A DNA stretch of 64,000 bases from a bacterium (GCA_965213625.1 CBDBZU010000004.1:960001-1024000), one strand, 5' to 3'; counted from the stretch's first letter, positions 18 through 26,561 are shown. Translations and numbers: made by a program. The notes: a model not told the origin generated them from the letters alone.

Positions 18-488
18 TCACTCGTTCACACGCCAGGTGTCGCGCATCGCGCAACCGCTCGCCTTGAAGAGGTTGTAGACCGGGCACCTGCGGAAATAGT
101 CCGCCTTGAGCGCTTCCAGCTGTTCGTCGTTCGCGTCGATCTCGAGCCAAATCTCGCTGTGCGCCTCGCTGGGGTTCGAGTCGTAGCCGTCCTGTCCCGC
201 GATGCCTCTCGGGCTGTAGACGATGGTGGATTTCACCTTGAGGGAGCCTATCTCGAGCTTCGCTTCTTTTGCGCATCTTTCGAGTATTACCGCCGTACAG
301 CCTGCGAGCGAAATGACGAGATAGCCCGTCGGCGAGGGGCCCTCGTCCGAGCCGCCCAGGCGCTTCGGCTCATCCACCACCATGGTATGCCCGCCCTTCA
401 CGGTGACGATGCTCTTCGCATGGCCCTTAAAGTCGGCTTCCGCCCAGTTATCCGTGGTTTCTGGTAGTTCTTTCGGTCGAATCGCCAT
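18..488 (-). CDS. OsmC/Ohr family protein
   Basis: DEP..LGG.D.GPSP...LAGC and RRCPV motifs (two-Cys OsmC fold); ATG at 488 preferred as start. Confidence 0.85.
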   Translation of the reverse strand: MAIRPKELPETTDNWAEADFKGHAKSIVTVKGGHTMVVDEPKRLGGSDEGPSPTGYLVISLAGCTAVILERCAKEAKLEIGSLKVKSTIVYSPRGIAGQDGYDSNPSEAHSEIWLEIDANDEQLEALKADYFRRCPVYNLFKASGCAMRDTWRVNE

Positions 489-18283: not shown

Positions 18284-19042
18284 TTAGTTCACATACTGTC
18301 CGCCGTTCACGTCGATGGTCGCGCCGGTGACGTAGCCGCAGCCCGGCGTGGAGAAATACCATATCGCGTCGGCGATATCCTCAGGCTCCCCGCCGAAGCC
18401 TACGGGCAGGTTCGCCACTATCTGCGGCACGCGTTCCTGGTGCACCAGGCGAAAGCGCTTGGTGAGCGTCACGCCCGGGGCCACGGCATTCACCGTAATG
18501 CCGTGAGGGGCGAGTTCCGCCGCGAGCCTCCTCGTGAAGCCCTGCATCGCTGATTTCGCGGCGCTGTAGACAAGGGATACGTTCGCCAGGGCGTCGCGCG
18601 CGGAGATGGAGGATACGTTCACGATTCGGCCATAGCCCCGTTCTTTCATCGGGGCCGTCGCCGCCCGGGTGGCGAGATAGCAGCTTGTCAGGTTCCATTC
18701 GACAATCTTCTCCCACTCCGCCTCGTCGAGGTCCTCGATGTCGGACACCTCCACGAAACCGCCCGCGCAGTTCACGAGAATGTCGAGGCGGCCCCAGGTG
18801 CCGAGCGCCCGGGCGAACAGAAGATCGACGTCCTCTTTTTGCGCGGCGTCGCCCTGGACGTAGATGGCGTCGCCGTGCGCGCTCACCGTGGCCAGGGCCG
18901 CCGAGCCACGATCCGGATCGCGCCCGGTAATGACCACCTTCGCGCCCTCATCGGCGAATCGTATCGCCGTCGCCAGACCGATGCCGTCGGTCGCGCCGGT
19001 GACGATGGCGACGTGATCTTTTATCGATGACCGCTCATGCAC
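18284..19042 (-). CDS. SDR family oxidoreductase (FabG-like)
   Basis: VTGATDGIG, LVNCAG, YSAAK, NAVAPG, DVNGG. Confidence 0.92.
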   Translation of the reverse strand: MHERSSIKDHVAIVTGATDGIGLATAIRFADEGAKVVITGRDPDRGSAALATVSAHGDAIYVQGDAAQKEDVDLLFARALGTWGRLDILVNCAGGFVEVSDIEDLDEAEWEKIVEWNLTSCYLATRAATAPMKERGYGRIVNVSSISARDALANVSLVYSAAKSAMQGFTRRLAAELAPHGITVNAVAPGVTLTKRFRLVHQERVPQIVANLPVGFGGEPEDIADAIWYFSTPGCGYVTGATIDVNGGQYVN

Positions 19043-19055
19043 GCGATTGTCCTTT

Positions 19056-19817
19056 CTAGTGAACGTACCTGCCGCCGTTGACGTCGAGCACCACGCCGGT
19101 AACGTAGCGCGCTTGTGGTCTGGCGAGATACCAAACGGCGTCGGCGATATCCGCAGCGTCCGCCAGGCGGCGCGCCGGAATTTTCGAGACTATCTCGGGC
19201 AATCTGTCCTTGTGGAGAACGGCCGTCCTCGGGGTGATCACGACGCCCGGAGTCACCGTGTTCACCGTTACGCCGTGGGGAGCGACTTCCACCGCCAGCC
19301 GCCTGCCAAACCCGAACAGGCCCGCCTTGGCGGCGCTGTAGGCGAGGCCGGTCTCGATGATGGCGTCGCGGCCCGACTGGGAGGAAACGTTCACGATGCG
19401 GCCGTAGCCGGCTTTCTTCATAAAGGGCATAGACGCGCGCGCGCACAGGTAGGCGCTCTTCAGGTTCAGGTCCACGACCCGGCGCCACTGCGACTCGTCG
19501 ATCTCTTCGATGGCCGGGTTTTCCACGAATCCGCCCGCGCAGTTCACCAGAATGTCAAGACGCCCCCAGGTGACGAGCGCCTCCTCTACCGCCGCTTTCA
19601 CCTCATTCGCCGAGGTTGCGTCGGTATTGATGAAGCGGGCTTCGCCCCCCTCATCGCATATTCGGCGCGCCGTCGCCTCGCCCAGCGCATCGTCGAGGTC
19701 CAGTAGCGCAACGCGCGCGCCCTCATGCGCGAGGCGCTCGGCTATCGCTTCGCCGATGCCCACCGCGCCCGCCGTCACGAGCGCCACGTGTCCTTGGATC
19801 GAGGATTTATCTTCCAT
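19056..19817 (-). CDS. SDR family oxidoreductase, tandem paralog
   Basis: VTAGAVGIG, LVNCAG, YSAAK, DVNGG. Confidence 0.92.
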   Translation of the reverse strand: MEDKSSIQGHVALVTAGAVGIGEAIAERLAHEGARVALLDLDDALGEATARRICDEGGEARFINTDATSANEVKAAVEEALVTWGRLDILVNCAGGFVENPAIEEIDESQWRRVVDLNLKSAYLCARASMPFMKKAGYGRIVNVSSQSGRDAIIETGLAYSAAKAGLFGFGRRLAVEVAPHGVTVNTVTPGVVITPRTAVLHKDRLPEIVSKIPARRLADAADIADAVWYLARPQARYVTGVVLDVNGGRYVH

Positions 19818-19857
19818 CTCGTATGCCGCCTCGCTTGCGTCCACCGAGAAATTCCGT

Positions 19858-20232
19858 TTAAGAATCCCGCCCGGACGACCGAATCATAAAAAATCCCTCA
19901 TAGGCGAGGAAGGGAACCGTAAAAGGCACCAGAACCAGCCACAAGGTTCCGCTCTCGAGGCCGCTGCCCGCCATCTTCGCCAGATAGTTATAGGCGTAAA
20001 AATTCACCAGCACGCCGCCCGCTATCGCCGCAACAACCCGGTGCCACACGGCCTCGCTGTCCATCATATCGCGTATGTTCGTGATGAGAACGTACGCCAT
20101 GGCGGCGATGACGGCGGCGTCGAGCCAATGAAAAACAACCTTGGCCGCCTTGGGGTTCATCGCGAAAAACTGGTTGTTGAGCATCAGCGCAATCGCAACC
20201 GCCAGAACGAGGAAGCCCCCTTTTGAGCGCAT
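19858..20232 (-). CDS. Hypothetical membrane protein (about 4 TM)
   Basis: GGAGGA RBS before ATG 20232; four hydrophobic segments. Confidence 0.7.
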   Translation of the reverse strand: MRSKGGFLVLAVAIALMLNNQFFAMNPKAAKVVFHWLDAAVIAAMAYVLITNIRDMMDSEAVWHRVVAAIAGGVLVNFYAYNYLAKMAGSGLESGTLWLVLVPFTVPFLAYEGFFMIRSSGRDS

Positions 20233-20358
20233 GTTTCCTCCTCCCGACAAAAAACCCGAGTCGCTCTTCGCCTCGCACCGTCTCCCCTCACGCCGAGGGT
20301 TCGCATGGCTCGCCGATAATGAGTGGATTATAGCGCATCGCCACCGCCTTGCCAGCCG

Positions 20359-20955
20359 CTAGGGGGCGCTTGCGGCGGCGAAATAGGTGTTGCCGTCGAA
20401 ATCCCACCAGCGGGCTTTTCGAAACCCCGCCTCGCGCAACTCCGCCACGAGTTCTCGGGGCTCAAAGCTCGCTTCGAGGGGCGGCCCCATGTCCATGGGC
20501 TTCTTGTGCCAGTCGATGAGCGTGATGGCGGCGCCCTTTTTCATCGCGCGGCTTGATTCGGCGAGCAGGGCCTGGATGTCGGCCAACCCGTGTAGCACGA
20601 ACGCGATGAGGACGAAGTCCGCACACGCATCCGGAAAGGGGATTCGGGATCCCTGGTTTCGCTTCGCCGTCAGGTTGGCGTAGCCGCGCTCTTTGGCTCC
20701 CGCCCGAAGTTCGGTGATCATCACGGGCGAGACGTCGCAGGCGAACACGCGGCCGTGTTTTCCCACGATTCTGCAAGCGGGGATCGCGAAATATCCTGGG
20801 CCGCAGCCGATATCCAGGAAACCCATGCCGCGTTTCAGGCCCAGGGCGCGCAGCGTCTTGACGGGCGGCATGGCCCGCCGCCTTCCCCTTGTGAGCAGGA
20901 GGTGTCGGTTGCGGACGGGAAGCGTCCACTTCTTACGTGCGGCCGACTCGCTCAA
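20359..20955 (-). CDS. Class I SAM-dependent methyltransferase
   Basis: LDIGCGPGYF, ACDVS, FVLHG, IDWHK..GPP; TTG start overlaps the upstream stop. Confidence 0.88.
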   Translation of the reverse strand: MSESAARKKWTLPVRNRHLLLTRGRRRAMPPVKTLRALGLKRGMGFLDIGCGPGYFAIPACRIVGKHGRVFACDVSPVMITELRAGAKERGYANLTAKRNQGSRIPFPDACADFVLIAFVLHGLADIQALLAESSRAMKKGAAITLIDWHKKPMDMGPPLEASFEPRELVAELREAGFRKARWWDFDGNTYFAAASAP

Positions 20956-22043
20956 GCCTCATCCTCGAGATAGCCGCCGAGCGCCTCACGGATGAATTCC
21001 TCCGGGTGCCCCTCTCGGATGAGCATGAAGCCCTCCGCCAGGCACTCGAGCTTTCTGCGCTCCCTGTCGAGTCGCGTCTGCCCCTTCCGGCTGAGGAGCC
21101 TCTCGACGTCTTCTATCGTGGCGCCCTCGAGCGCCCACTTGAGCCCCGTCTTGAGGAGGGGTTCCTGAATCCATTCGAGGCGCTCGGCAATCGCGCCGCC
21201 CTCGTCGCGGGAAGCGAGGCCAGCGAGTTCCACGCAAAGGCTGATGATGTCGACCGTGGCTTGTGCCGAGGGAGAAAACCGGACGCCCGGCAGGCGCTCG
21301 TAATCCGCCTCGCCCTCGGGCAGGAATGCGACGAGCCTCGCGCGCGCGCGGTCCTCGCTCACGCCCTCGAGAATCGCCAGCGCGCCCTCGATGGCGATCT
21401 CCTTGTTTCTTTCAACTGCGCTGAGGGAGGATTCGATTTGCCTGACGAGAATCAACTCGGCCTCATCCCAGGGCGCCTGGTCGACCAGCATTCGAAGGCC
21501 GGTCGAGAAAATTCCGTCCGGGCTCCTCTCGAGGGCCGGCTCGAGGGAGAGCAACCCGTGCTGCTCCGCCCACGCGGCCAGTGCGACGATGAGCGAAACG
21601 GCGTGCTCGGCCTTGCTGTCAGATGAGTGAAACGCGGCGAGCCCTTCTTCGAGCGCCCGATCCAGCGGTGGAATGGCGTCGTCGGCGGGGCCATCGAATG
21701 TAATGTCGCCGTGGTTTTTCATGGCGTAGGCGGTCTGCATCAACATCTGGCGCGCCTCGACGCTCCGCTCGTTCTCCACAGCGCCCGAACGCTCGATTTC
21801 CTCGCGAATATGGGACGCGTTTTTGGAGGATACGTTCCTGAGCACCCGCTCGACCACGCGCGGCTGCGCGTCGCGTAGCGCCAGTACGAGGATTTCCAGG
21901 TCCATGCGCTCGATGACACGCCTTAACGCACGGCCCGACATCTCTGCGATGGGGCTCAGGTCGGGGTTCTCGCCGGGGGAGAAGTAGTGAAAGCCCGGAC
22001 CCTCCATCCCGCCCTCGTCCCAGCCGTCGCCACTAAAGTTCAT
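20952..22043 (-). CDS. FliG C-terminal domain fused to two MotA-like cytoplasmic modules
   Basis: aa ~28-115 resemble FliG_C; aa ~146-242 and ~264-360 resemble the MotA cytoplasmic loop plus C-tail; no TM segments. Confidence 0.75.
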   Translation of the reverse strand: MNFSGDGWDEGGMEGPGFHYFSPGENPDLSPIAEMSGRALRRVIERMDLEILVLALRDAQPRVVERVLRNVSSKNASHIREEIERSGAVENERSVEARQMLMQTAYAMKNHGDITFDGPADDAIPPLDRALEEGLAAFHSSDSKAEHAVSLIVALAAWAEQHGLLSLEPALERSPDGIFSTGLRMLVDQAPWDEAELILVRQIESSLSAVERNKEIAIEGALAILEGVSEDRARARLVAFLPEGEADYERLPGVRFSPSAQATVDIISLCVELAGLASRDEGGAIAERLEWIQEPLLKTGLKWALEGATIEDVERLLSRKGQTRLDRERRKLECLAEGFMLIREGHPEEFIREALGGYLEDEA

Positions 22044-22127: not shown

Positions 22128-23771
22128 TCAATTCTCCTCGGCCAGCTTGGGCGGCTGCACGGAACGGTTCACATAGAATTGCTGCGCGATGGAGAGGAGG
22201 TTGTTCACGAGCCAGTAGATAACCAGCCCCACGGGCACGGGATAGAAGATGAACATGCCCGTGAAGACGATGGGCATAAACATCATCATCTTCGCCTGGG
22301 TGGGGTCGCCCGCGGTGGGCGTCATCTTCTGCTGCAAGAACATCGAGGCGCCCATAAGTATCGTATATACGTGGTAGGGGTCCTGCACGGAGAGATCCTG
22401 CACCCAGCCGAAAAAGGGCGCGTTACGCAACTCTATCGACACCAGGAGCGCTTCGTATAGCCCGAAGAAGACGGGTATCTGTATCAGCATGGGCAGACAG
22501 CCCATCATCGGGTTGACCTTGTGCTCCTTATATAAGGCCATGGTCTGCTCGTTCAGCCTGTTCTTGTCGTCCTTGTATATCTCGCGCAACTGCGTGATGC
22601 GCGGCTGGAGCTTCTGCATCTCCTTCATGTTGCGCATGCTGACGTGGGTGAGGGGGTAGAAGATGATTTTCACCACGATCGTCAGCAGGATGATGGCCAC
22701 GCCCCAGTTGCCTACGATCCCGTGGAAAAAACGCAGAATCGACATGAGCGGCTTGGCGATGAAGGAGAACATCCCGTAGTCCAGGGAATCCTCGAGGTTG
22801 ACCTTGAGCTTTTCGAGGTGCTCCACCGCCTTCGGCCCCACATAGATGTCGAAGTCCGCTTCGACGTTCGTTCCCCGTGAGAAGGGCACGATGGCGGCAT
22901 ATTCGCTCAAATCATCCGTTTTGCTTAACAAGCGAATCTCCGCACCGCCCGCACCGCCTCGGGGAATGAGCGCCGCGATAAAGTGCTTCGATTGGAGCGA
23001 AGTCCACTTGAGGCTCTCGCCGTGGGTGACGGGTTTCGCTTCCTCGGGATAGTCGTATTCGAGTTCTTCGCCCACGAAGCTCATCGGCCCCTCGATGACG
23101 CCGCCATACGTGTTGCCGTCGCTTCCGCCCACGCGCGGCCCCCAGACGATTCCCATCGCCTCCGTCCCGGAAGGACGCGTGACGCTTATATTCGTGCGGA
23201 TATTGAATTCGTTGTGGCGGAAGGTGAGCGCCTTCTCCGCCGAGAGGCCATCGGCGCCTCGGTAGAGGAAGCGAACCGTTCCCTCAGGATTCGTCTTCGA
23301 GAGCGAGAGGTCGCCGCCTACGACCTGGTAGGAAGCCTCGTTGAGCCGCTGCGCCGTCTTTCCGCCCCAGAAGAAAAGAGGCCGCACGTCCGGGCGGCCC
23401 GAAGGCACGAGCTGGACGAAGTTCTTCTCGCCCTGTTTGTATTTCAAAAGGCGTGCGGACAAAAAGCCCGCGCCCCGGTTGGTCAGTTCATACACTGCGT
23501 CGCCAATGTCCACGCGAACGCGTCGCCCCGGAGCAGCTTCCGTGGGCGTAGCAGGAGCGGCGGGTGTGGCCGGCTGGCCGGCGACGGAAGCGGGCGCTTT
23601 AAGTGGCGTGCTCGCGGCGCTCGATTGTCCCTTCTTCTGGGCCGCCGCGCGCGCCTTGGCCACCTTTTGCTTCTGGGCCTGCTCGTCTTCCATGGGCTTG
23701 ACGATGAGGTATTGCCAGCCAATCAGTATCGCCATCGACAAGACGGCGGCGAGAATCGCGTTTCTTTCCAT
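22128..23771 (-). CDS. yidC: Membrane protein insertase YidC
   Basis: YVGPK, LDYG, NWGVAIILLT, GCLPMLIQIPVF, LVIYWLVNN; start MERNAIL at 23771. Confidence 0.97.
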   Translation of the reverse strand: MERNAILAAVLSMAILIGWQYLIVKPMEDEQAQKQKVAKARAAAQKKGQSSAASTPLKAPASVAGQPATPAAPATPTEAAPGRRVRVDIGDAVYELTNRGAGFLSARLLKYKQGEKNFVQLVPSGRPDVRPLFFWGGKTAQRLNEASYQVVGGDLSLSKTNPEGTVRFLYRGADGLSAEKALTFRHNEFNIRTNISVTRPSGTEAMGIVWGPRVGGSDGNTYGGVIEGPMSFVGEELEYDYPEEAKPVTHGESLKWTSLQSKHFIAALIPRGGAGGAEIRLLSKTDDLSEYAAIVPFSRGTNVEADFDIYVGPKAVEHLEKLKVNLEDSLDYGMFSFIAKPLMSILRFFHGIVGNWGVAIILLTIVVKIIFYPLTHVSMRNMKEMQKLQPRITQLREIYKDDKNRLNEQTMALYKEHKVNPMMGCLPMLIQIPVFFGLYEALLVSIELRNAPFFGWVQDLSVQDPYHVYTILMGASMFLQQKMTPTAGDPTQAKMMMFMPIVFTGMFIFYPVPVGLVIYWLVNNLLSIAQQFYVNRSVQPPKLAEEN

Positions 23772-23797
23772 GATGTAAAGCGCCTCCGCCGGACCCC

Positions 23798-24055
23798 TCA
23801 GGGAACCGGATCGTTTCCCCCGGGGTGAAATGGATGGCAGCGCCCGATGCGGCGCACGGTGAGCCATAGGGCCCGCGCGGGTGCGTGACGCCGAAACGCC
23901 TCGAGCGCGTAATGAGAACAAGAAGGTGAAAAGCGGCAACTGCCAGGCATCACGGGAGACAAAACGAGTTGATACCCCCGAATCAAGATCGTCGCCAATA
24001 CACAGATCGCCCGAGAGACGGGGCCGATCTCTTTTTCAGGAATTCGTTTTTCCAT
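23798..24055 (-). CDS. yidD: Membrane protein insertion efficiency factor YidD
   Basis: YQ..LSP...CRFSPSCSHY..EA...RIGRCHPFHPGG.DPVP. Confidence 0.95.
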   Translation of the reverse strand: MEKRIPEKEIGPVSRAICVLATILIRGYQLVLSPVMPGSCRFSPSCSHYALEAFRRHAPARALWLTVRRIGRCHPFHPGGNDPVP

Positions 24056-24383
24056 GGATAGCGTTGCGGAACGACCTTTCAACATCCTCTAGCCTCGCCA
24101 TGGCGATCGAGTTCCTCGCCACGGCCACAAGGTCTACTCCCGCAGGGAGTTGAGAGCCGTGACGCCGAAACACCTCGCGGAGAAGCCGCTTGGCGCGATT
24201 CCTCTGAACGGCGCCGCCCACCCGGCGCGACGCGATGATGCCAATTCGTGCGCGTCTCCGCGAAGGAGTCGACAGGATATGCAACGTGAAATTCGGACAC
24301 TTGTGCTTGCGTCCTTTTCTGAGAACGACGGCGAATTCACTCCCCTTGCGAATTCGCCGCTCCGGCGGGAAGCTCTCGTCCAT
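24036..24383 (-). CDS. rnpA: Ribonuclease P protein component
   Basis: RIGIIASRRVGGAVQRNRAKRLLRE (RNR motif). Confidence 0.95.
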   Translation of the reverse strand: MDESFPPERRIRKGSEFAVVLRKGRKHKCPNFTLHILSTPSRRRARIGIIASRRVGGAVQRNRAKRLLREVFRRHGSQLPAGVDLVAVARNSIAMARLEDVERSFRNAIHGKTNS

Positions 24384-24427
24384 GCCCGCGCCCTCCCGTT
24401 CGAGGGTCGGCAAGTCCGGCGCGCCGT

Positions 24428-24568
24428 CTAGGCGGAAACGCCGAGACGCTTGCGGCCCTTGACCCGGCGGCGTTTTATAACCGCGCGGCCGCCGGTGGTC
24501 TTCATCCGGCGACGAAATCCGTGCGTCTTCACTCGTTTTCTTCTGTTCGGCTGGTATGTTCGTTTCAC
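24428..24568 (-). CDS. rpmH: 50S ribosomal protein L34 (not in ORF track)
   Basis: Manual translation [49 protein letters not shown] start. Confidence 0.97.
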
Positions 24569-24757
24569 CAAAAACTCCGTCTACCGGCCCCAAGGCCGAT
24601 CTTTCAACCCGCCATATAAATGATAAAGGTGGGTATCCCCTAGAAACCGAGCGTAAAGTAGCCACCAAAGTCCTGATTGTCAAGAACTACTTGTTAGGGG
24701 CATGACAAAATTGACAAGCTCAAGGGATCGGGGTATTTTCCTCGACCTTGGTTTGCT

Positions 24758-24901
24758 TTACCCACAAAGAAGGTTCATTTCCGTTCATAAATGACAAAAT
24801 ACCCGAAAGACGCTCCTTTTTGTGGAAAAATACTTGCCAACACCCAGGGTTTTGTGGAAAAATGCCTTCTCAGGTCAACTCCAGTCTCGCCCTGTGGAAA
24901 A
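24758..24901. promoter_or_regulatory. DnaA-box cluster upstream of dnaA
   Basis: TTACCCACA at 24758; TGTGGAAAA (reverse complement TTTTCCACA) at 24821, 24853, 24893. Confidence 0.8.
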
Positions 24902-24963
24902 CCGGCTGCTGAGCGGCTCAATGCCCCTCGCTCCGAGATCTTTGTCGTGAATTGGTGCTCTAA

Positions 24964-26325
24964 ATGACGACCCTTTGGCGGCGCTGCGCAGAAAAAATCG
25001 AGCAAGAGGTCTCCTCCCAGACGTACTCACGCTGGTTTGCCGGCATAGAGGAGCTTGATTCAAGCGATTCTTCCCTGGCGATTCAGGCCCCTGATCCATT
25101 TACGGCGGAAACCCTGCGCACACGCTATTGGGGAATTATCAAGGACATCCTCGAACAAGAGGCCGGGCCGAACGTTGTGCTCACCCTCTCGGCGAGTGAT
25201 GGCGTGGTCAACGGAGCCAACGCCCTGCGTACGATCGCCGAACCGTTTCCAGCAAATGAGGACCCCGGGCCTTTGGCAATATCTAAGGCCCCTCCGGAGA
25301 AACCGGACTTCCTGAACCCAAAATACCGTTTCGAGAACTTCGTGGTGGGCAGCTCAAACGAATTCGCCCACGCCTGCAGCCTTCGTTTGGCTGAGGGCAA
25401 GGGGGTTGCGCTCAACCCCCTTTTCATCTACGGCGGCGTAGGTCTCGGTAAAACCCACCTGATGCACGCCATCGCTCACCACGTCCTCGATCAACACCCG
25501 AGGACACGCATCTTCTACACATCGTCGGAAAACTTCATTAACGATCTCATCACCTCGATCAGACAGAATCAGATGACCGCCTTCAGAAGCAAATACCGGA
25601 AAGTGGACATCCTGATGATAGACGACATCCAGTTTATCGCCGGAAAAGAGCGCACCCAGGAAGAATTCTTCTTTACTTTCAACGATTTACAAGATACGAG
25701 AAAACAGATCGTCATCACGAGCGATAAAATACCCAAAGACACCCCAGGGCTGGAAGATCGTCTCAGGTCGCGATTTATCTCAGGGATGATTGCGGACATC
25801 GGCGCACCGGACTTCGAAACCAAGGTTGCCATCCTGCAGAAGAAAGCGAGCGAACAGGGACTTTCGCTCAACCGGGATGTCGCCCACTATATCGCCGAGA
25901 AAGTCCGCTCTAACGTCCGGGAACTCGAGGGCTGCCTTATCAAGCTCAGCATTCATGCTTCTTTGTACGATACCGAGGTTGATCTCCCTGTCGCGCAAGA
26001 AGTGTTGCGCGGCATCATCCGGGACCCCGCCCGCAACTCTTCGGTAGATAATATCCAGAAGATCGTCGCCGATCACTTTCAGGTTAGGGTTAGCGACCTT
26101 AAATCGAAAAACCGCTCGCGATCTTTTGCCGTTCCCCGGCAGATCGCCATGTTCCTCGCAAGAAAACTCACGCGCGCCTCGACAACGGAAATAGGTCGTC
26201 GCTTCGGCGGAAAGGATCATTCCACGGTAATACACTCCACAAACAAGATTGAGAACCTGCTCAAAACGGATCAGTCTCTCTCCGCCACCATCCAGACCCT
26301 CGAGCAAAAGATAGACTTATCCTGA
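24964..26325 (+). CDS. dnaA: Chromosomal replication initiator DnaA
   Basis: NPLFIYGGVGLGKTHL, IDDIQF, NVRELEG, FGGKDHSTV. Confidence 0.99.
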   Translation: MTTLWRRCAEKIEQEVSSQTYSRWFAGIEELDSSDSSLAIQAPDPFTAETLRTRYWGIIKDILEQEAGPNVVLTLSASDGVVNGANALRTIAEPFPANEDPGPLAISKAPPEKPDFLNPKYRFENFVVGSSNEFAHACSLRLAEGKGVALNPLFIYGGVGLGKTHLMHAIAHHVLDQHPRTRIFYTSSENFINDLITSIRQNQMTAFRSKYRKVDILMIDDIQFIAGKERTQEEFFFTFNDLQDTRKQIVITSDKIPKDTPGLEDRLRSRFISGMIADIGAPDFETKVAILQKKASEQGLSLNRDVAHYIAEKVRSNVRELEGCLIKLSIHASLYDTEVDLPVAQEVLRGIIRDPARNSSVDNIQKIVADHFQVRVSDLKSKNRSRSFAVPRQIAMFLARKLTRASTTEIGRRFGGKDHSTVIHSTNKIENLLKTDQSLSATIQTLEQKIDLS

Positions 26326-26561
26326 AACACCCGTGGAAAGGGTTGTGGATAACCATGTTGAAATCCCCCTTCTTCGCCGCGTTCAAGGAAAAAATCCCCA
26401 GCCTCCTACATTTACCCACAAGCGACTCCACACCCCTCCATTTGAACAAAAGCTTCAATTTGAACACCTTGGAAGGATGTCCACAATATCCCGGTTTCTA
26501 CTACTACTACTATTTTGATCTTATCCTTGGCCTTAAAAGAACTAGTGCCTGAGGATATCCT
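26326..26561. other. oriC unwinding region (DnaA boxes, DnaA-trios, AT-rich tract)
   Basis: TGTGGATAA 26344-26352, TTACCCACA 26412-26420, ATGTCCACA 26477-26485, (CTA)5 at 26498-26512 then TTTT. Confidence 0.85.

What the first reader, a model, noticed from the sequence alone, without database searches (positions are those of the whole stretch)
20952..22043. Soluble FliG_C-MotA-MotA fusion: rotor and stator interface domains in one polypeptide, next to yidC
Seen: aa ~28-115 align by eye with the FliG C-terminal ARM/torque domain (RALRRVIERMDLEILVLALRDA...VLRNVS...IREEI..G.V....EARQ...GDI). aa ~146-242 and ~264-360 are two repeats. Each resembles the MotA cytoplasmic loop (LA..AE..GLLSLE...D.IF..GL.MLVD) joined directly to the MotA C-tail (E...EG.L.I.EG.......L..FL), with the intervening TM helices missing. 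The protein has no TM segment and there are no flagellar genes in the window. Established: FliG_C and the MotA cytoplasmic domain form the torque-generating contact of the flagellar motor. Here the basic contact residues look altered (ARREG to AEQHG; GPVR to GAVE) while acidic ones persist. Inference: this could be a motor decoy or brake, a soluble MotA-ring scaffold, or an exapted non-flagellar module. It occupies the slot after yidC that usually holds jag and is coupled to a methyltransferase gene.
Basis: partly seen in the sequence, partly recalled or inferred. Interest (0 to 1): 0.8.

Follow-up and report, generated by a model that had tools for sequence, protein, structure and literature searches.

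The report
Soluble FliG–MotA interface protein without flagella
This gene encodes a cytoplasmic protein made from the two surfaces that normally meet to turn the bacterial flagellum, the rotor's FliG C-terminal domain and two membrane-less copies of the stator's MotA cytoplasmic domain, and it is conserved in bacteria that appear to have no flagellum.

Summary
The ORF at 20952..22043 (-), 363 aa, has a FliG_C domain (Pfam E 2.1e-14; structure Z 15.2, rmsd 1.2 A). It also has two tandem repeats of the MotA cytoplasmic "torque-generating interface" (TGI) joined to the MotA C-tail, with the TM3-TM4 hairpin missing (NCBIfam MotA E 1.1e-11; structure Z 14.7-14.8; internal repeat E 1e-7). No TM segment was found.

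The genome (96.6% complete) gave no match to FlhA, FliF, flagellin or the MotB plug, and this is its only FliG_C match. The gene is not decaying: median dN/dS is 0.16 across 20 species of the genus. It lies downstream of yidC in all 10 loci examined.

It is not a one-off fusion. Profile searches place it in a large, unnamed superfamily that combines FliG_C with TM-less TGI modules. Variants carry one, two or many repeats, ECF sigma-factor fusions, or true MotA fused to FliG_C. [quoted passage not shown]

Function is unknown. My best reading is a rotor-stator-derived docking module, re-purposed in this flagellum-less genus, where the MotA R90-equivalent arginine has been lost. Five literature searches found no description of it.

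The parts
20952..22043 (-). Whole gene: 363-aa soluble FliG_C + 2 x TM-less MotA cytoplasmic (TGI) repeats, including the stop codon
22051..22056 (-). SD-like GGAAGA, 8-13 nt upstream of the ATG
   Evidence: read from the sequence; not tested further
21960..22043 (-). aa 1-28: N-terminal tail, pLDDT below 50 for aa 1-17, with the genus-conserved PGENPDL motif
   Evidence: dN/dS 0.25
21696..21959 (-). aa 29-116: FliG_C domain with the torque-helix charges kept (R57, K74, E81, E82). The R297-equivalent is E90
   Evidence: Pfam E 2.1e-14; Z 15.2, rmsd 1.2 A over 91 aa; residue mapping
21615..21695 (-). aa 117-143: linker with the invariant GPADD..PP motif and one short helix
21315..21614 (-). aa 144-243: repeat 1, made of the MotA TGI loop (MotA ~73-135) joined to the MotA C-tail (~219-252), with TM3-TM4 missing. 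The R90-equivalent is E160 and the E98-equivalent is E168
21273..21314 (-). aa 244-257: inter-repeat linker (EGEADYERLPGVRF), unchanged at protein level across the genus, modelled as an exposed loop (pLDDT 63-67)
   Evidence: median dN about 0 in 173 pairs
20955..21272 (-). aa 258-363: repeat 2, a second TM-less MotA TGI + C-tail module. The R90-equivalent is S278 (followed by R279) and the E98-equivalent is A286
20359..20955 (-). Downstream class I SAM-dependent methyltransferase gene (198 aa), overlapping the stop by 4 nt. It follows the gene in 7 of 10 loci examined
   Evidence: Pfam Methyltransf_25/11 and UbiE-type, E ~1e-16
22128..23939 (-). Upstream yidC (longest ORF). The true start is probably near 23771, where relatives' ORFs begin MERNAI/MEKNAI. 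An 84-nt gap separates it from the gene, with no terminator or promoter match
   Evidence: Pfam 60KD_IMP E 6.3e-62 and YidC_periplas E 5.8e-27

Best explanation
SHOWN. The gene encodes a cytoplasmic protein built from both halves of the flagellar torque-generating contact. It has one FliG C-terminal (torque-helix) domain and two tandem MotA cytoplasmic modules. Each module is the TM2-TM3 loop (the "torque-generating interface", TGI) joined to the post-TM4 tail, with the TM3-TM4 hairpin and TM1-TM2 absent.

It belongs to a large, unnamed superfamily that combines FliG_C with TM-less TGI modules in many orders and copy numbers.

In this genus, where searches for flagellar genes found nothing, it is kept under purifying selection. 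It sits in a conserved yidC - gene - (methyltransferase) - SDR - SDR arrangement.

INFERRED. FliG_C and TGI are a known binding pair, they recur together in one polypeptide, and the superfamily conserves the canonical charge residues. So the working core is probably a FliG_C-TGI contact, made within the chain or between chains, that forms a compact docking module.

In flagellated carriers the module most likely docks on the motor. The TGI repeats would sit on the FliG ring like a stator, and FliG_C would sit on MotA like a rotor. That could brake or bridge the motor, or tether fused cargo such as ECF sigma factors.

In this genus the R90-equivalent arginines of both repeats have been replaced. 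The protein has probably been re-purposed as a non-flagellar scaffold or adaptor whose partner is unknown.

My odds: the architecture and superfamily membership, 0.95. A non-flagellar role in this organism, 0.8. A FliG_C-TGI contact as the functional core, 0.5. Motor docking in flagellated relatives, 0.35.
For: Architecture.
- Pfam FliG_C matches at E 2.1e-14.
- NCBIfam MotA matches at E 1.1e-11 in 2 stretches.
- PDB MotA alignments cover the loop and the C-tail but skip TM3-TM4.
- The internal repeat aligns at E 1e-7.
- The AF2 model has pLDDT 86.7 and pTM 0.81.
- Structural matches are FliG_C at Z 15.2 and MotA/PomA at Z 14.7-14.8. Unrelated chains score 6.9 or less, and ExbB 5.4.

Homology to real stators.
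- An HMM built only from soluble repeats finds genuine 4-TM MotAs at residues ~72-136 with E down to 1e-26.
- Genuine MotAs match the family profile in two pieces, MotA 67-143 and 203-245. The roughly 59 aa of TM3-TM4 between them are skipped.

No flagellum found.
- FlhA, flagellin, FliF and MotB_plug gave no match in the 96.6%-complete genome.
- This protein is the only FliG_C match.
- The 3 MotA_ExbB genes are each followed by a small ORF that I read by eye as ExbD/TolR-like; I did not run a profile on them.
- FlhA was found in 0 of 23 genomes of the genus, counting this one.

Conservation.
- The gene is in 28 of 51 genomes of the phylum, 21 of 23 in the genus (one of them split).
- Median dN/dS is 0.161 over 190 pairs, and between 0.12 and 0.18 in each domain.
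- The position downstream of yidC holds in 10 of 10 loci examined. These were 4 of the 20 genus loci plus all 6 from other genera.

Superfamily.
- The profile of 23 family members found 272 representatives at E<=1e-10. They include full-length collinear look-alikes of 350-375 aa (alignment).
- A second profile found 617 clusters at E<=1e-10 among 7999 scored. They include single-repeat forms, forms with an N-terminal extension, ECF-sigma fusions and MotA(TM)-FliG_C fusions.

Contact residues across 29 wider-family proteins.
- FliG R281-equivalent: R in 29 of 29.
- FliG D289-equivalent: E in 28 of 29.
- Repeat-1 R90-equivalent: R or K in 27 of 29.
- Repeat-1 E98-equivalent: E in 26 of 29.
- Repeat-2 R90-equivalent: R in 28 of 29.
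- The paper PMC12505986 (passages read) states that MotA R90/FliG D288-D289 and MotA E98/FliG R281 are the rotor-stator pairs. It also states that the TGI is specific to flagellar stators.

Shift in the flagellum-less carriers. The repeat-1 R90-equivalent is R in 3 of 5 FlhA-positive carriers and in 0 of 21 FlhA-negative ones.
Against: No direct evidence of function, partner, expression or oligomeric state was obtained.

I could not read model coordinates. Whether FliG_C touches a TGI repeat through the canonical surfaces is therefore untested. pTM 0.81 only says the domains are placed confidently relative to one another.

In this protein a canonical contact would set acid against acid (E160 facing E81/E82). 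That argues against the textbook interface here.

The R-to-E pattern in flagellum-less carriers is essentially one evolutionary event, so it is an anecdote and not statistics.

In the FliG_C tree the family is a long branch that does not sit inside the wider soluble group. Common origin with the superfamily therefore rests on three things:
- the TGI tree, which has only 65 columns;
- the collinear full-length alignment at 18-23% identity;
- the single-stretch profile matches.
Independent assembly of the same architecture is not excluded.

In the other phylum the link with flagella is only an enrichment. FlhA is in 11 of 15 carriers against 42 of 106 other genomes. Genome completeness there is unknown, and the genomes are related to one another.

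Conserved synteny next to yidC within one bacterial family may be inheritance and not a functional link. The five wider-family loci I inspected showed no yidC nearby, judged from ORF lists without profile annotation.
Confidence: 0.5

Rival explanations
1. It is an active flagellar regulator in this organism: a decoy, brake or clutch that binds the FliG ring or MotA stators.
For: Both domains come from the rotor-stator interface. Four of the five FliG charge residues are kept. Relatives in flagellated genomes carry the gene (6 of 28 carriers have FlhA).
Against: FlhA, FliF, flagellin, MotB plug and a second FliG_C gave no match in the 96.6%-complete, 4-contig genome. FlhA was found in 0 of 23 genomes of the genus, several of which are single-contig assemblies. 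The MotA R90-equivalents of both repeats are replaced.
Confidence: 0.04
2. It is a decaying remnant of flagellar genes left after loss of the flagellum, with no function.
For: The flagellum appears lost in the genus while flagellated relatives exist in the same family. One genome (G024) carries the gene in two pieces that abut at residue 200/201, and two genomes gave no match. Canonical contact arginines are lost.
Against: The gene is intact and full-length in 20 of 23 genomes of the genus. Median dN/dS is 0.16, and 0.12-0.18 in every domain. One linker is invariant at protein level although its dS is 0.34. The AF2 model is confident. The architecture is shared with hundreds of clusters elsewhere.
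Confidence: 0.03
3. It is an adaptor for another ion-driven 5:2 motor of this cell (TolQR or ExbBD). It would couple motor rotation or assembly to a cytoplasmic process through stator-like and rotor-like surfaces.
For: The genome keeps three MotA_ExbB-family genes, each followed by a small ORF that I read by eye as ExbD/TolR-like. True MotA-family membrane proteins fused to FliG_C exist in the superfamily. So FliG_C does pair with membrane motors outside the classical rotor.
Against: According to PMC12505986 (passages), ExbB and TolQ lack the TGI that FliG_C recognises. ExbB matches the model only at Z about 5. The gene is not next to any of the three loci. No binding test was run.
Confidence: 0.12
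4. It is a regulatory partner of transcription factors, acting like an anti-sigma or sigma-tethering module. The FliG_C-TGI unit would act as a switchable sequestration domain.
For: Superfamily members have ECF sigma regions 2 and 4 fused N-terminally to FliG_C plus TGI: P0059 and P0277 by my Pfam scans, and P0280 and P0285 by precomputed Pfam labels. One carrier genome (G051) has two tandem paralogues. Variable N-terminal cargo domains and such paralogy are typical of signalling adaptors.
Against: This protein has no DNA-binding or sigma domain. I saw no sigma factor gene among the neighbours. The fusions are a minority of the listed architectures.
Confidence: 0.1
5. Its function is tied to YidC-dependent membrane protein biogenesis or to the neighbouring methyltransferase and SDR enzymes, as part of one operon.
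For: It is downstream of yidC in 10 of 10 loci examined, down to 46-54% protein identity. There is no terminator or promoter match in the 84-nt gap. A 4-nt overlap joins it to the next gene, whichever gene that is: the methyltransferase in L005, L007 and L027, an SDR in L026.
Against: All carriers belong to one bacterial family, so the synteny may be inherited. In two genera a DsbA-like plus MauE/DoxX-like gene pair (my reading by eye) lies between yidC and the gene. The methyltransferase is missing in 3 of 10 loci. I saw no yidC in the five wider-family loci (ORF lists only). No binding test was run.
Confidence: 0.1

Closest known systems
FliG (flagellar rotor / switch protein), C-terminal torque domain (Pfam PF01706; PDB 1lkv, 1qc7, 8wiw)
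   Same: aa 29-116 have the same fold: Z 15.2, rmsd 1.2 A over 91 aa, 21-25% identity. Four of the five charged residues that face MotA are kept: the K264, R281, D288 and D289 equivalents.
   Different: There is no FliG_N or FliG_M domain, so no FliF or FliM binding parts. TIGR00207 scores 36 bits against a cut-off of 226.7. The R297-equivalent is lost. The domain is at the N-terminus instead of the C-terminus. The gene is not in a flagellar locus, and searches of the genome found no flagellar genes.
MotA / PomA (flagellar stator A subunit), cytoplasmic torque-generating interface (PDB 6ysl, 6ysf, 8ucs, 8brd, 9lu9)
   Same: Each repeat matches the TM2-TM3 loop and the post-TM4 tail in sequence and in structure (Z 14.7-14.8). 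The E98-equivalent of repeat 1 is invariant in the family, 23 of 23.
   Different: There are no transmembrane helices, no ion path and no MotB partner. PF01618 does not match, and the maximum hydropathy is 1.37. The module is duplicated in tandem and fused to its own binding partner. The R90-equivalent is E160 in repeat 1 and S278 in repeat 2. In the TGI tree the soluble repeats separate from 4-TM MotAs, including those of flagellated relatives, with 96/93 support.
MotAB-FliG_C complex (PDB 8ucs)
   Same: It holds the same two domain types that make the torque contact. 8ucs_C is the best Foldseek hit, at E 2.1e-3.
   Different: In 8ucs the two domains are on separate proteins in a membrane motor. 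Here they are in one soluble chain. I could not test whether they touch in the same way, because no model coordinates are available.
Soluble motor effectors that bind FliG or MotA (YcgR and other PilZ brakes, the EpsE clutch, MotI) - recalled from general knowledge, not from a call
   Same: A possible functional analogy for the flagellated relatives: a cytoplasmic protein that engages the rotor-stator interface.
   Different: No shared domains: Pfam finds no PilZ or glycosyltransferase domain. Those proteins act only where a flagellum exists.
ExbB / TolQ / AglR (non-flagellar 5:2 motor A subunits)
   Same: A distant common ancestry with MotA.
   Different: According to PMC12505986 (passages) they have condensed cytoplasmic domains without the TGI. 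ExbB and TolQ chains match the model only at Z 4.6-5.4. The three paralogues in this genome are ordinary membrane proteins elsewhere on the chromosome.

Membership tests
FliG (flagellar motor switch protein, TIGR00207) | C-terminal torque domain (FliG_C) | tested here: met
   PF01706 E 2.1e-14, above the cut-off; Z 15.2, rmsd 1.2 A
FliG (flagellar motor switch protein, TIGR00207) | FliG_N and FliG_M domains, with a full-length equivalog score | tested here: not met
   No FliG_N or FliG_M match at E<=1. TIGR00207 scores 36 bits against a cut-off of 226.7, and only profile positions 244-328 match
FliG (flagellar motor switch protein, TIGR00207) | Works in a flagellar basal body (FliF, FlhA and other parts present) | tested here: not met
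   No FHIPEP, YscJ_FliF, Flagellin_N or MotB_plug match in the 96.6%-complete genome
MotA/PomA flagellar stator subunit (NF005997, PF01618) | Cytoplasmic torque-generating interface between TM2 and TM3, plus the C-terminal tail | tested here: met
   NF005997 E 1.1e-11 in 2 stretches; PDB MotA alignments; Z 14.7-14.8. A repeat-only HMM finds real MotAs at E down to 1e-26
MotA/PomA flagellar stator subunit (NF005997, PF01618) | Four transmembrane helices forming the ion channel | tested here: not met
   No PF01618 match. Maximum KD-19 hydropathy is 1.37, while real MotAs gave 2-5 segments at 1.6 or above with the same scan. NF005997 scores 44 bits against a cut-off of 340
MotA/PomA flagellar stator subunit (NF005997, PF01618) | Adjacent motB/pomB partner gene | tested here: not met
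   No MotB_plug match anywhere in the genome. The neighbours are yidC and a methyltransferase
Unnamed superfamily of FliG_C + TM-less MotA-TGI proteins (defined here) | FliG_C and one or more TGI modules in one chain without TM helices | tested here: met
   The same layout is seen in P0045, P0048, P0054, P0068 and others
Unnamed superfamily of FliG_C + TM-less MotA-TGI proteins (defined here) | Full-length collinear homology to other members | tested here: met
   The profile of this family matches P0045 (361 aa) over positions 30-361 in one stretch at E 5.1e-25, and at least nine other proteins of 350-375 aa. The alignment has 18-23% identity
Unnamed superfamily of FliG_C + TM-less MotA-TGI proteins (defined here) | Common descent of both domains with the other members | tested here: inconclusive
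   In the TGI tree the repeats fall on the soluble side of a 96/93 split. In the FliG_C tree the family is a long branch outside the main soluble group
Unnamed superfamily of FliG_C + TM-less MotA-TGI proteins (defined here) | Conserved MotA R90-equivalent arginine in the repeats | tested here: not met
   Wider family: R or K in 27 of 29 (repeat 1) and R in 28 of 29 (repeat 2). This protein has E160 and S278. Its own family has R in 5 of 23 and 7 of 23
PilZ-type or other known motor brakes (YcgR, MotI, EpsE) | PilZ or glycosyltransferase domain | tested here: not met
   Pfam lists only FliG_C and a weak MgtE_N match
Jag/KhpB (the gene often found after yidC) | Jag_N, KH and R3H domains | tested here: not met
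   None in this protein. Jag_N has no match in the genome
Anti-phage defence systems (for example Zorya, which uses MotAB homologues) | Match to a PADLOC model | tested here: not met
   0 PADLOC families for this protein and for 3 of the 5 relatives scanned (P0054, P0212, P0281); P0059 and P0216 gave only weak matches, E 2e-4 or worse

The most novel reading that the evidence does not exclude
FliG_C and the MotA torque interface, freed from the membrane and joined in one chain, form a self-recognising, switchable docking pair. Bacteria would use this pair as a general cytoplasmic adaptor. It would close on itself or assemble head-to-tail, carry cargo such as ECF sigma factors, and work without a flagellum in lineages such as this one. 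The flagellar rotor-stator contact would then have a second, non-motor life as a signalling or scaffolding module.
Probability: 0.2. Interest if true: 0.85.

Novelty: new variant of a known kind. Interest (0 to 1): 0.7.

Why it matters
The FliG-MotA contact is among the most studied protein interfaces in bacterial motility, and it has been treated as exclusive to the flagellar motor. The MotA torque interface has been described as a flagellum-specific innovation (PMC12505986, passages read).

Here the same two surfaces occur as soluble modules in one chain, in hundreds of protein clusters. In at least one genus they have outlived the flagellum under purifying selection.

If the modules still bind each other, they offer a small, soluble, membrane-free system for studying the torque interface. 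If they dock on motors, they are a new class of motor effectors and a possible route from motor state to gene expression, through the sigma-factor fusions. If they work without flagella, they are a clear case of exaptation of motor parts.

A practical point for annotation: the TGI repeat is not covered by any Pfam model that matched here. These proteins are therefore labelled only by their FliG_C domain, or mislabelled "MotA".

Tried and rejected
Binding and expression.
- Homodimer prediction (2 copies, alignment A1): score 0.17-0.20 against a mark of 0.42, so no verdict. It is not evidence either way.
- Expression: no RNA holder was listed. The 4 runs that hold the stretch come from one study and their kind is not on record.

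Tools and searches that gave nothing.
- The search for related loci found nothing for the single proteins P0054, P0048 and P0253. Alignment A4 then worked.
- Foldseek alone gave only E 2.1e-3, because the missing TM hairpin spoils a global superposition (rmsd ~16 A). The VIA second look resolved this.
- PADLOC gave no defence-system match for the protein.
[quoted passage not shown] It had no structure search for this sequence.

Context of the wider family. I listed ORFs around five loci (L041-L044, L051) and saw no recurrent neighbour. They were not annotated by profile.

A false lead. The many profile matches to positions 85-175 only, in the other phylum, looked like extra family members. All 14 ORFs I fetched were full-length FliG-like proteins without TGI, so I left them out of the carrier count.

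A labelling slip. In the TGI tree my script labelled six 4-TM MotAs (L106, L110, L111, L115, L116, L118) as "single". I corrected this by hand.

E. coli MotA did not match the family profile. I therefore mapped R90 and E98 by the fixed spacing to the conserved G and E in the HMMER alignment with C. sporogenes MotA, not by a direct alignment.

Literature. Five full-text searches found no description of a soluble MotA-TGI protein or a FliG_C-TGI fusion.
Full report
**1. What is in the sequence**

The ORF 20952..22043 on the minus strand encodes 363 aa. An SD-like GGAAGA lies 8-13 nt before the ATG.

The gene lies 84 nt downstream of yidC (Pfam 60KD_IMP E 6.3e-62). I read the genes upstream of yidC as yidD and rnpA, and the diverging gene at 24964 as dnaA. 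Those three names come from reading the translations and from BLAST to relatives' ORFs, not from a profile test. The cumulative GC skew has its minimum at 24-26 kb, so the region is at the replication origin.

A class I SAM-dependent methyltransferase gene follows. It overlaps the stop codon by 4 nt (TTGA) if its TTG start is real. The simple scans found no terminator-like or promoter-like site between yidC and the gene.

**2. Domain anatomy**

FliG_C:
- Pfam finds FliG_C at aa 32-115, E 2.1e-14, above the curated cut-off.
- phmmer against PDB finds FliG chains at E 5.5e-6 to 1e-4.

MotA-like repeats:
- NCBIfam's MotA model NF005997 matches at E 1.1e-11 in two stretches.
- phmmer against PDB aligns aa 150-195 with MotA 82-127 and aa 212-245 with MotA 219-252. 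It aligns aa 246-329 with MotA 57-141.
- So each repeat is the TM2-TM3 loop followed directly by the post-TM4 tail.
- The two repeats align with each other at 28% identity over 95 residues without gaps, E 1e-7.

Structure:
- An AlphaFold2 model built on 23 homologues is confident: pLDDT 86.7, pTM 0.81, all helical.
- Foldseek ranks only MotA, PomA and FliG chains at the top, but with weak E-values (best 2.1e-3).
- The VIA second look gives FliG_C Z 15.2, rmsd 1.2 A over 91 residues.
- It gives MotA and PomA Z 14.7-14.8 over 143-155 aligned residues, rmsd 4.2-5.6 A.
- The next unrelated chain scores Z 6.9, and ExbB 5.4.
- The MotA alignments span both repeats (model 140..363 against one MotA chain ~69..252). 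I cannot say from this how each repeat superposes on its own.

A hydropathy scan shows no TM segment: the maximum is 1.37, whereas real MotAs gave 2-5 segments at 1.6 or above with the same scan.

**3. The repeats are homologous to real stator subunits**

I built an HMM only from the repeats of twelve soluble proteins. It finds genuine four-TM MotAs of 254-278 aa at residues ~72-136 with E down to 1e-26.

In the other direction, genuine MotAs match the full family profile in two pieces, MotA 67-143 and MotA 203-245. They skip the roughly 59 residues of TM3-TM4.

The paper PMC12505986 (passages read with "find") describes this cytoplasmic "torque-generating interface" as a trait of flagellar stators that ExbB, TolQ and AglR lack. 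It names MotA R90 with FliG D288/D289, and MotA E98 with FliG R281, as the contact pairs.

**4. Contact residues**

I confirmed the E. coli numbering on K-12 sequences and mapped it onto the family (the MotA side by fixed spacing in the alignment).

In this protein:

| E. coli residue | Equivalent here |
|---|---|
| FliG K264 | R57 |
| FliG R281 | K74 |
| FliG D288 | E81 |
| FliG D289 | E82 |
| FliG R297 | E90 |
| MotA R90, repeat 1 | E160 |
| MotA E98, repeat 1 | E168 |
| MotA R90, repeat 2 | S278 (R279 follows) |
| MotA E98, repeat 2 | A286 |

Across 29 proteins of the wider family the canonical residues are largely kept:
- R281-equivalent: R in 29 of 29.
- D289-equivalent: E in 28 of 29.
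- Repeat-1 R90-equivalent: R or K in 27 of 29.
- Repeat-1 E98-equivalent: E in 26 of 29.
- Repeat-2 R90-equivalent: R in 28 of 29.
- Not kept: the repeat-2 E98-equivalent (E in 4 of 29) and the R297-equivalent (basic in 3 of 29).

**5. The organism appears to have no flagellum**

The genome is 4.15 Mb in 4 contigs and 96.6% complete. It has no match to FHIPEP (FlhA), YscJ_FliF, Flagellin_N or MotB_plug. Its only FliG_C match is this protein. Its three MotA_ExbB genes are each followed by a small ORF that I read by eye as ExbD/TolR-like, without a profile test.

**6. Distribution in the phylum**

The phylum has 51 species genomes, and the gene is present in 28 of them:
- 21 of the 23 genomes of the genus. 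One of these, G024, has it in two abutting pieces. G017 and G028 gave no match with this query.
- 7 genomes from five other genera of the same family.

FlhA is found in 9 of the 51 genomes and in 0 of the 23 of this genus. Six carriers have FlhA and 22 do not. Three FlhA-positive genomes (G010, G036, G008) gave only FliG-type matches.

The flagellated relatives have ordinary MotA genes elsewhere, E about 1e-58. Both repeats of their copy match MotA profile positions ~73-142.

**7. The gene is not decaying**

Over 190 pairs among 20 genus orthologues, median dN/dS is 0.161. By region it is 0.177 for FliG_C, 0.136 for repeat 1 and 0.117 for repeat 2. The linker aa 244-257 has a median dN of about 0 at dS 0.34.

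**8. Gene neighbourhood**

I examined 10 loci: 4 of the 20 genus loci and all 6 loci from other genera.
- The gene follows yidC in 10 of 10.
- The methyltransferase follows it in 7 of 10.
- An SDR or a pair of SDR genes follows in 7 of the 10 (L024-L030); the stored stretches of L005, L007 and L021 end before that point.

In G012 and G041 two extra genes lie between yidC and the gene. I read them by eye as DsbA-like and MauE/DoxX-like.

**9. It belongs to a much larger family**

A profile of the 23 homologues, scored against 1.84 billion representatives, found 3622 proteins at E<=1e-3, 272 at E<=1e-10 and 6 at E<=1e-30. These include real FliGs. They also include:
- proteins of 350-375 aa that match over positions ~30-360 in a single stretch (P0045 at E 5.1e-25, and P0048, P0054, P0068, P0071, P0074, P0079, P0096, P0104, P0108);
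- forms of ~435-450 aa with an N-terminal extension;
- forms of ~230-250 aa with one repeat;
- giants of 948-1699 aa with up to 7 matched stretches.

Aligned with this protein, the 350-375 aa proteins are collinear at 18-23% identity. They show textbook MotA motifs in both repeats.

A second profile (A3) found 617 clusters at E<=1e-10 among 7999 scored candidates. Pfam scans and my own HMMs show these architectures:
- FliG_C-TGI and FliG_C-TGI-TGI;
- N-terminal domain, then FliG_C, then TGI once or twice;
- two FliG_C domains plus TGI repeats;
- ECF sigma (regions 2 and 4), then FliG_C, then TGI;
- TGI, an intervening region, then FliG_C;
- true four-TM MotA with a C-terminal FliG_C.

[quoted passage not shown] Organism labels include Latescibacterota, Handelsmanbacteria, Gemmatimonadetes and a Treponema MAG. 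The ESM Atlas lists clusters with the same generic name in which Thermodesulfobacteriota, Bacillota or Myxococcota are the commonest labels.

**10. Trees**

TGI loops (79 rows, only 65 columns). One branch with 96/93 support separates two groups:
- 24 rows: 18 four-TM MotAs including those of this phylum's flagellated members, 4 MotA-FliG_C fusions, and both repeats of the long-branched P0071.
- 55 rows: all the other soluble repeats.

This family's repeat 1 (100/98) and repeat 2 (99/96) are each one clade. They sit together inside a group of repeat-2 sequences with weaker support (93/89, 94/85). So the repeats were not copied recently from the lineage's own motA.

FliG_C (56 rows). This family is one long-branched clade (100/98). 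It is apart from the relatives' true FliG, which group with E. coli FliG (98/94 for the relatives). It does not sit inside the main soluble group either, so this tree does not settle common descent of the FliG_C part.

**11. Link with flagella elsewhere**

In 121 genomes sampled from the phylum that holds G051-G055, matches that include TGI parts occur in 15 genomes. I selected these by eye, by query range. Eleven of the 15 have FlhA at E<=1e-20, against 42 of the other 106. Completeness of these genomes is not given, and they are related to one another. This is therefore an enrichment and not a rule.

Within this phylum, the repeat-1 R90-equivalent is arginine in 3 of 5 FlhA-positive carriers and in 0 of 21 FlhA-negative ones. 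That is essentially one lineage event.

**12. Reading**

What is shown:
- the protein is a real, conserved, soluble protein;
- it consists of FliG_C plus two TM-less MotA cytoplasmic modules;
- it belongs to a wide uncharacterised superfamily;
- here it sits in a genome where flagellar gene searches found nothing.

What is inferred. Two domains known to bind each other recur together in one chain in many arrangements, with their contact charges conserved across the superfamily. That suggests the FliG_C-TGI contact itself is the working principle, within the chain or between chains.

In flagellated carriers the module could dock on the motor from both sides, or tether cargo to it. In this genus the arginines are gone while selection stays strong. 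The role must therefore be non-flagellar, and the partner is unknown.

Rival readings are listed with odds: a TolQR/ExbBD adaptor, a transcription-factor partner, a YidC- or methyltransferase-linked role, a brake acting in this cell, and a decaying remnant. The last two are nearly excluded.

**13. What remains open**

- The homodimer job gave no verdict.
- No RNA data were found.
- Paper supplements are closed.
- Five literature searches found no description of this architecture. I read only passages of PMC12505986 and one table passage of PMC13066512. All other papers were seen as search listings only.

Noticed in passing
window 21273-21314 (aa 244-257): The linker between the two repeats (EGEADYERLPGVRF, within the invariant FLP.G..D....P.....PS pattern) is the most conserved part of the protein in its family. 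Median dN is about 0 in 173 pairs at dS 0.34. It is modelled as an exposed loop (pLDDT 63-67). It looks like a short linear binding motif.
   Followed up: partly
G139, G131, G115 (loci L124-L137): Genomes of the phylum around G051 carry several full-length FliG-like paralogues. Six were fetched from G139, five from G131 and three from G115. They are 342-404 aa with FliG_C at the C-terminus and no TGI. Some have identical FliG_C segments within a genome (G131) or between genomes (G139 and G115). Most bacteria have one fliG (recalled).
   Followed up: partly
P0059, P0277, P0280, P0285 (metagenome proteins): ECF sigma factors (regions 2 and 4) are fused N-terminally to FliG_C plus one or two MotA-TGI repeats. 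This would be a possible wiring of a rotor-stator-type module to transcription.
   Followed up: partly
P0271, P0272, P0274, P0281; L051 5003-6115: True four-TM MotA-family proteins carry a C-terminal FliG_C domain (370-516 aa), for example in a Latescibacterota MAG. The stator subunit is tethered to a copy of its own rotor partner.
   Followed up: partly
L025 5062-5975 and L030 5095-5963: In two genera a DsbA-like thioredoxin-fold gene and a MauE/DoxX-like membrane protein gene lie between yidC and the FliG_C-TGI gene. I identified them by eye only.
   Followed up: no
G024:C4:1268187-1269276: In one species of the genus the gene is in two abutting frames (residues 1-200 and 201-363). This is either a frameshift pseudogene or an assembly error.
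   Followed up: no
loci L045-L120: The ~80-aa N-terminal helical domain of the 433-446 aa family members (consensus PSLEQLKKQAKDL...EYGF..W) also occurs alone at the start of otherwise unrelated ORFs. The MAGs are labelled Planctomycetota, Verrucomicrobiota, Acidobacteriota, Actinomycetes and others. No Pfam model reached its cut-off on it.
   Followed up: no
window 18284-19844: Two tandem SDR (FabG-like) paralogues follow the methyltransferase and a small membrane protein gene (19858-20250). SDR genes were found downstream of the gene in 7 of the 10 loci examined, twice over in four of them.
   Followed up: partly
window 24000-26400: The cumulative GC-skew minimum lies at 24-26 kb. It coincides with the divergent rnpA-yidD-yidC and dnaA genes, so the window spans the replication origin. 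GC content drops to 52-55% at 24-28 kb.
   Followed up: no
window 20359-20955: The methyltransferase matches the PADLOC model mad2 at E 5.6e-20 over its methyltransferase core only. I read this as generic SAM-methyltransferase similarity, not a defence system.
   Followed up: no
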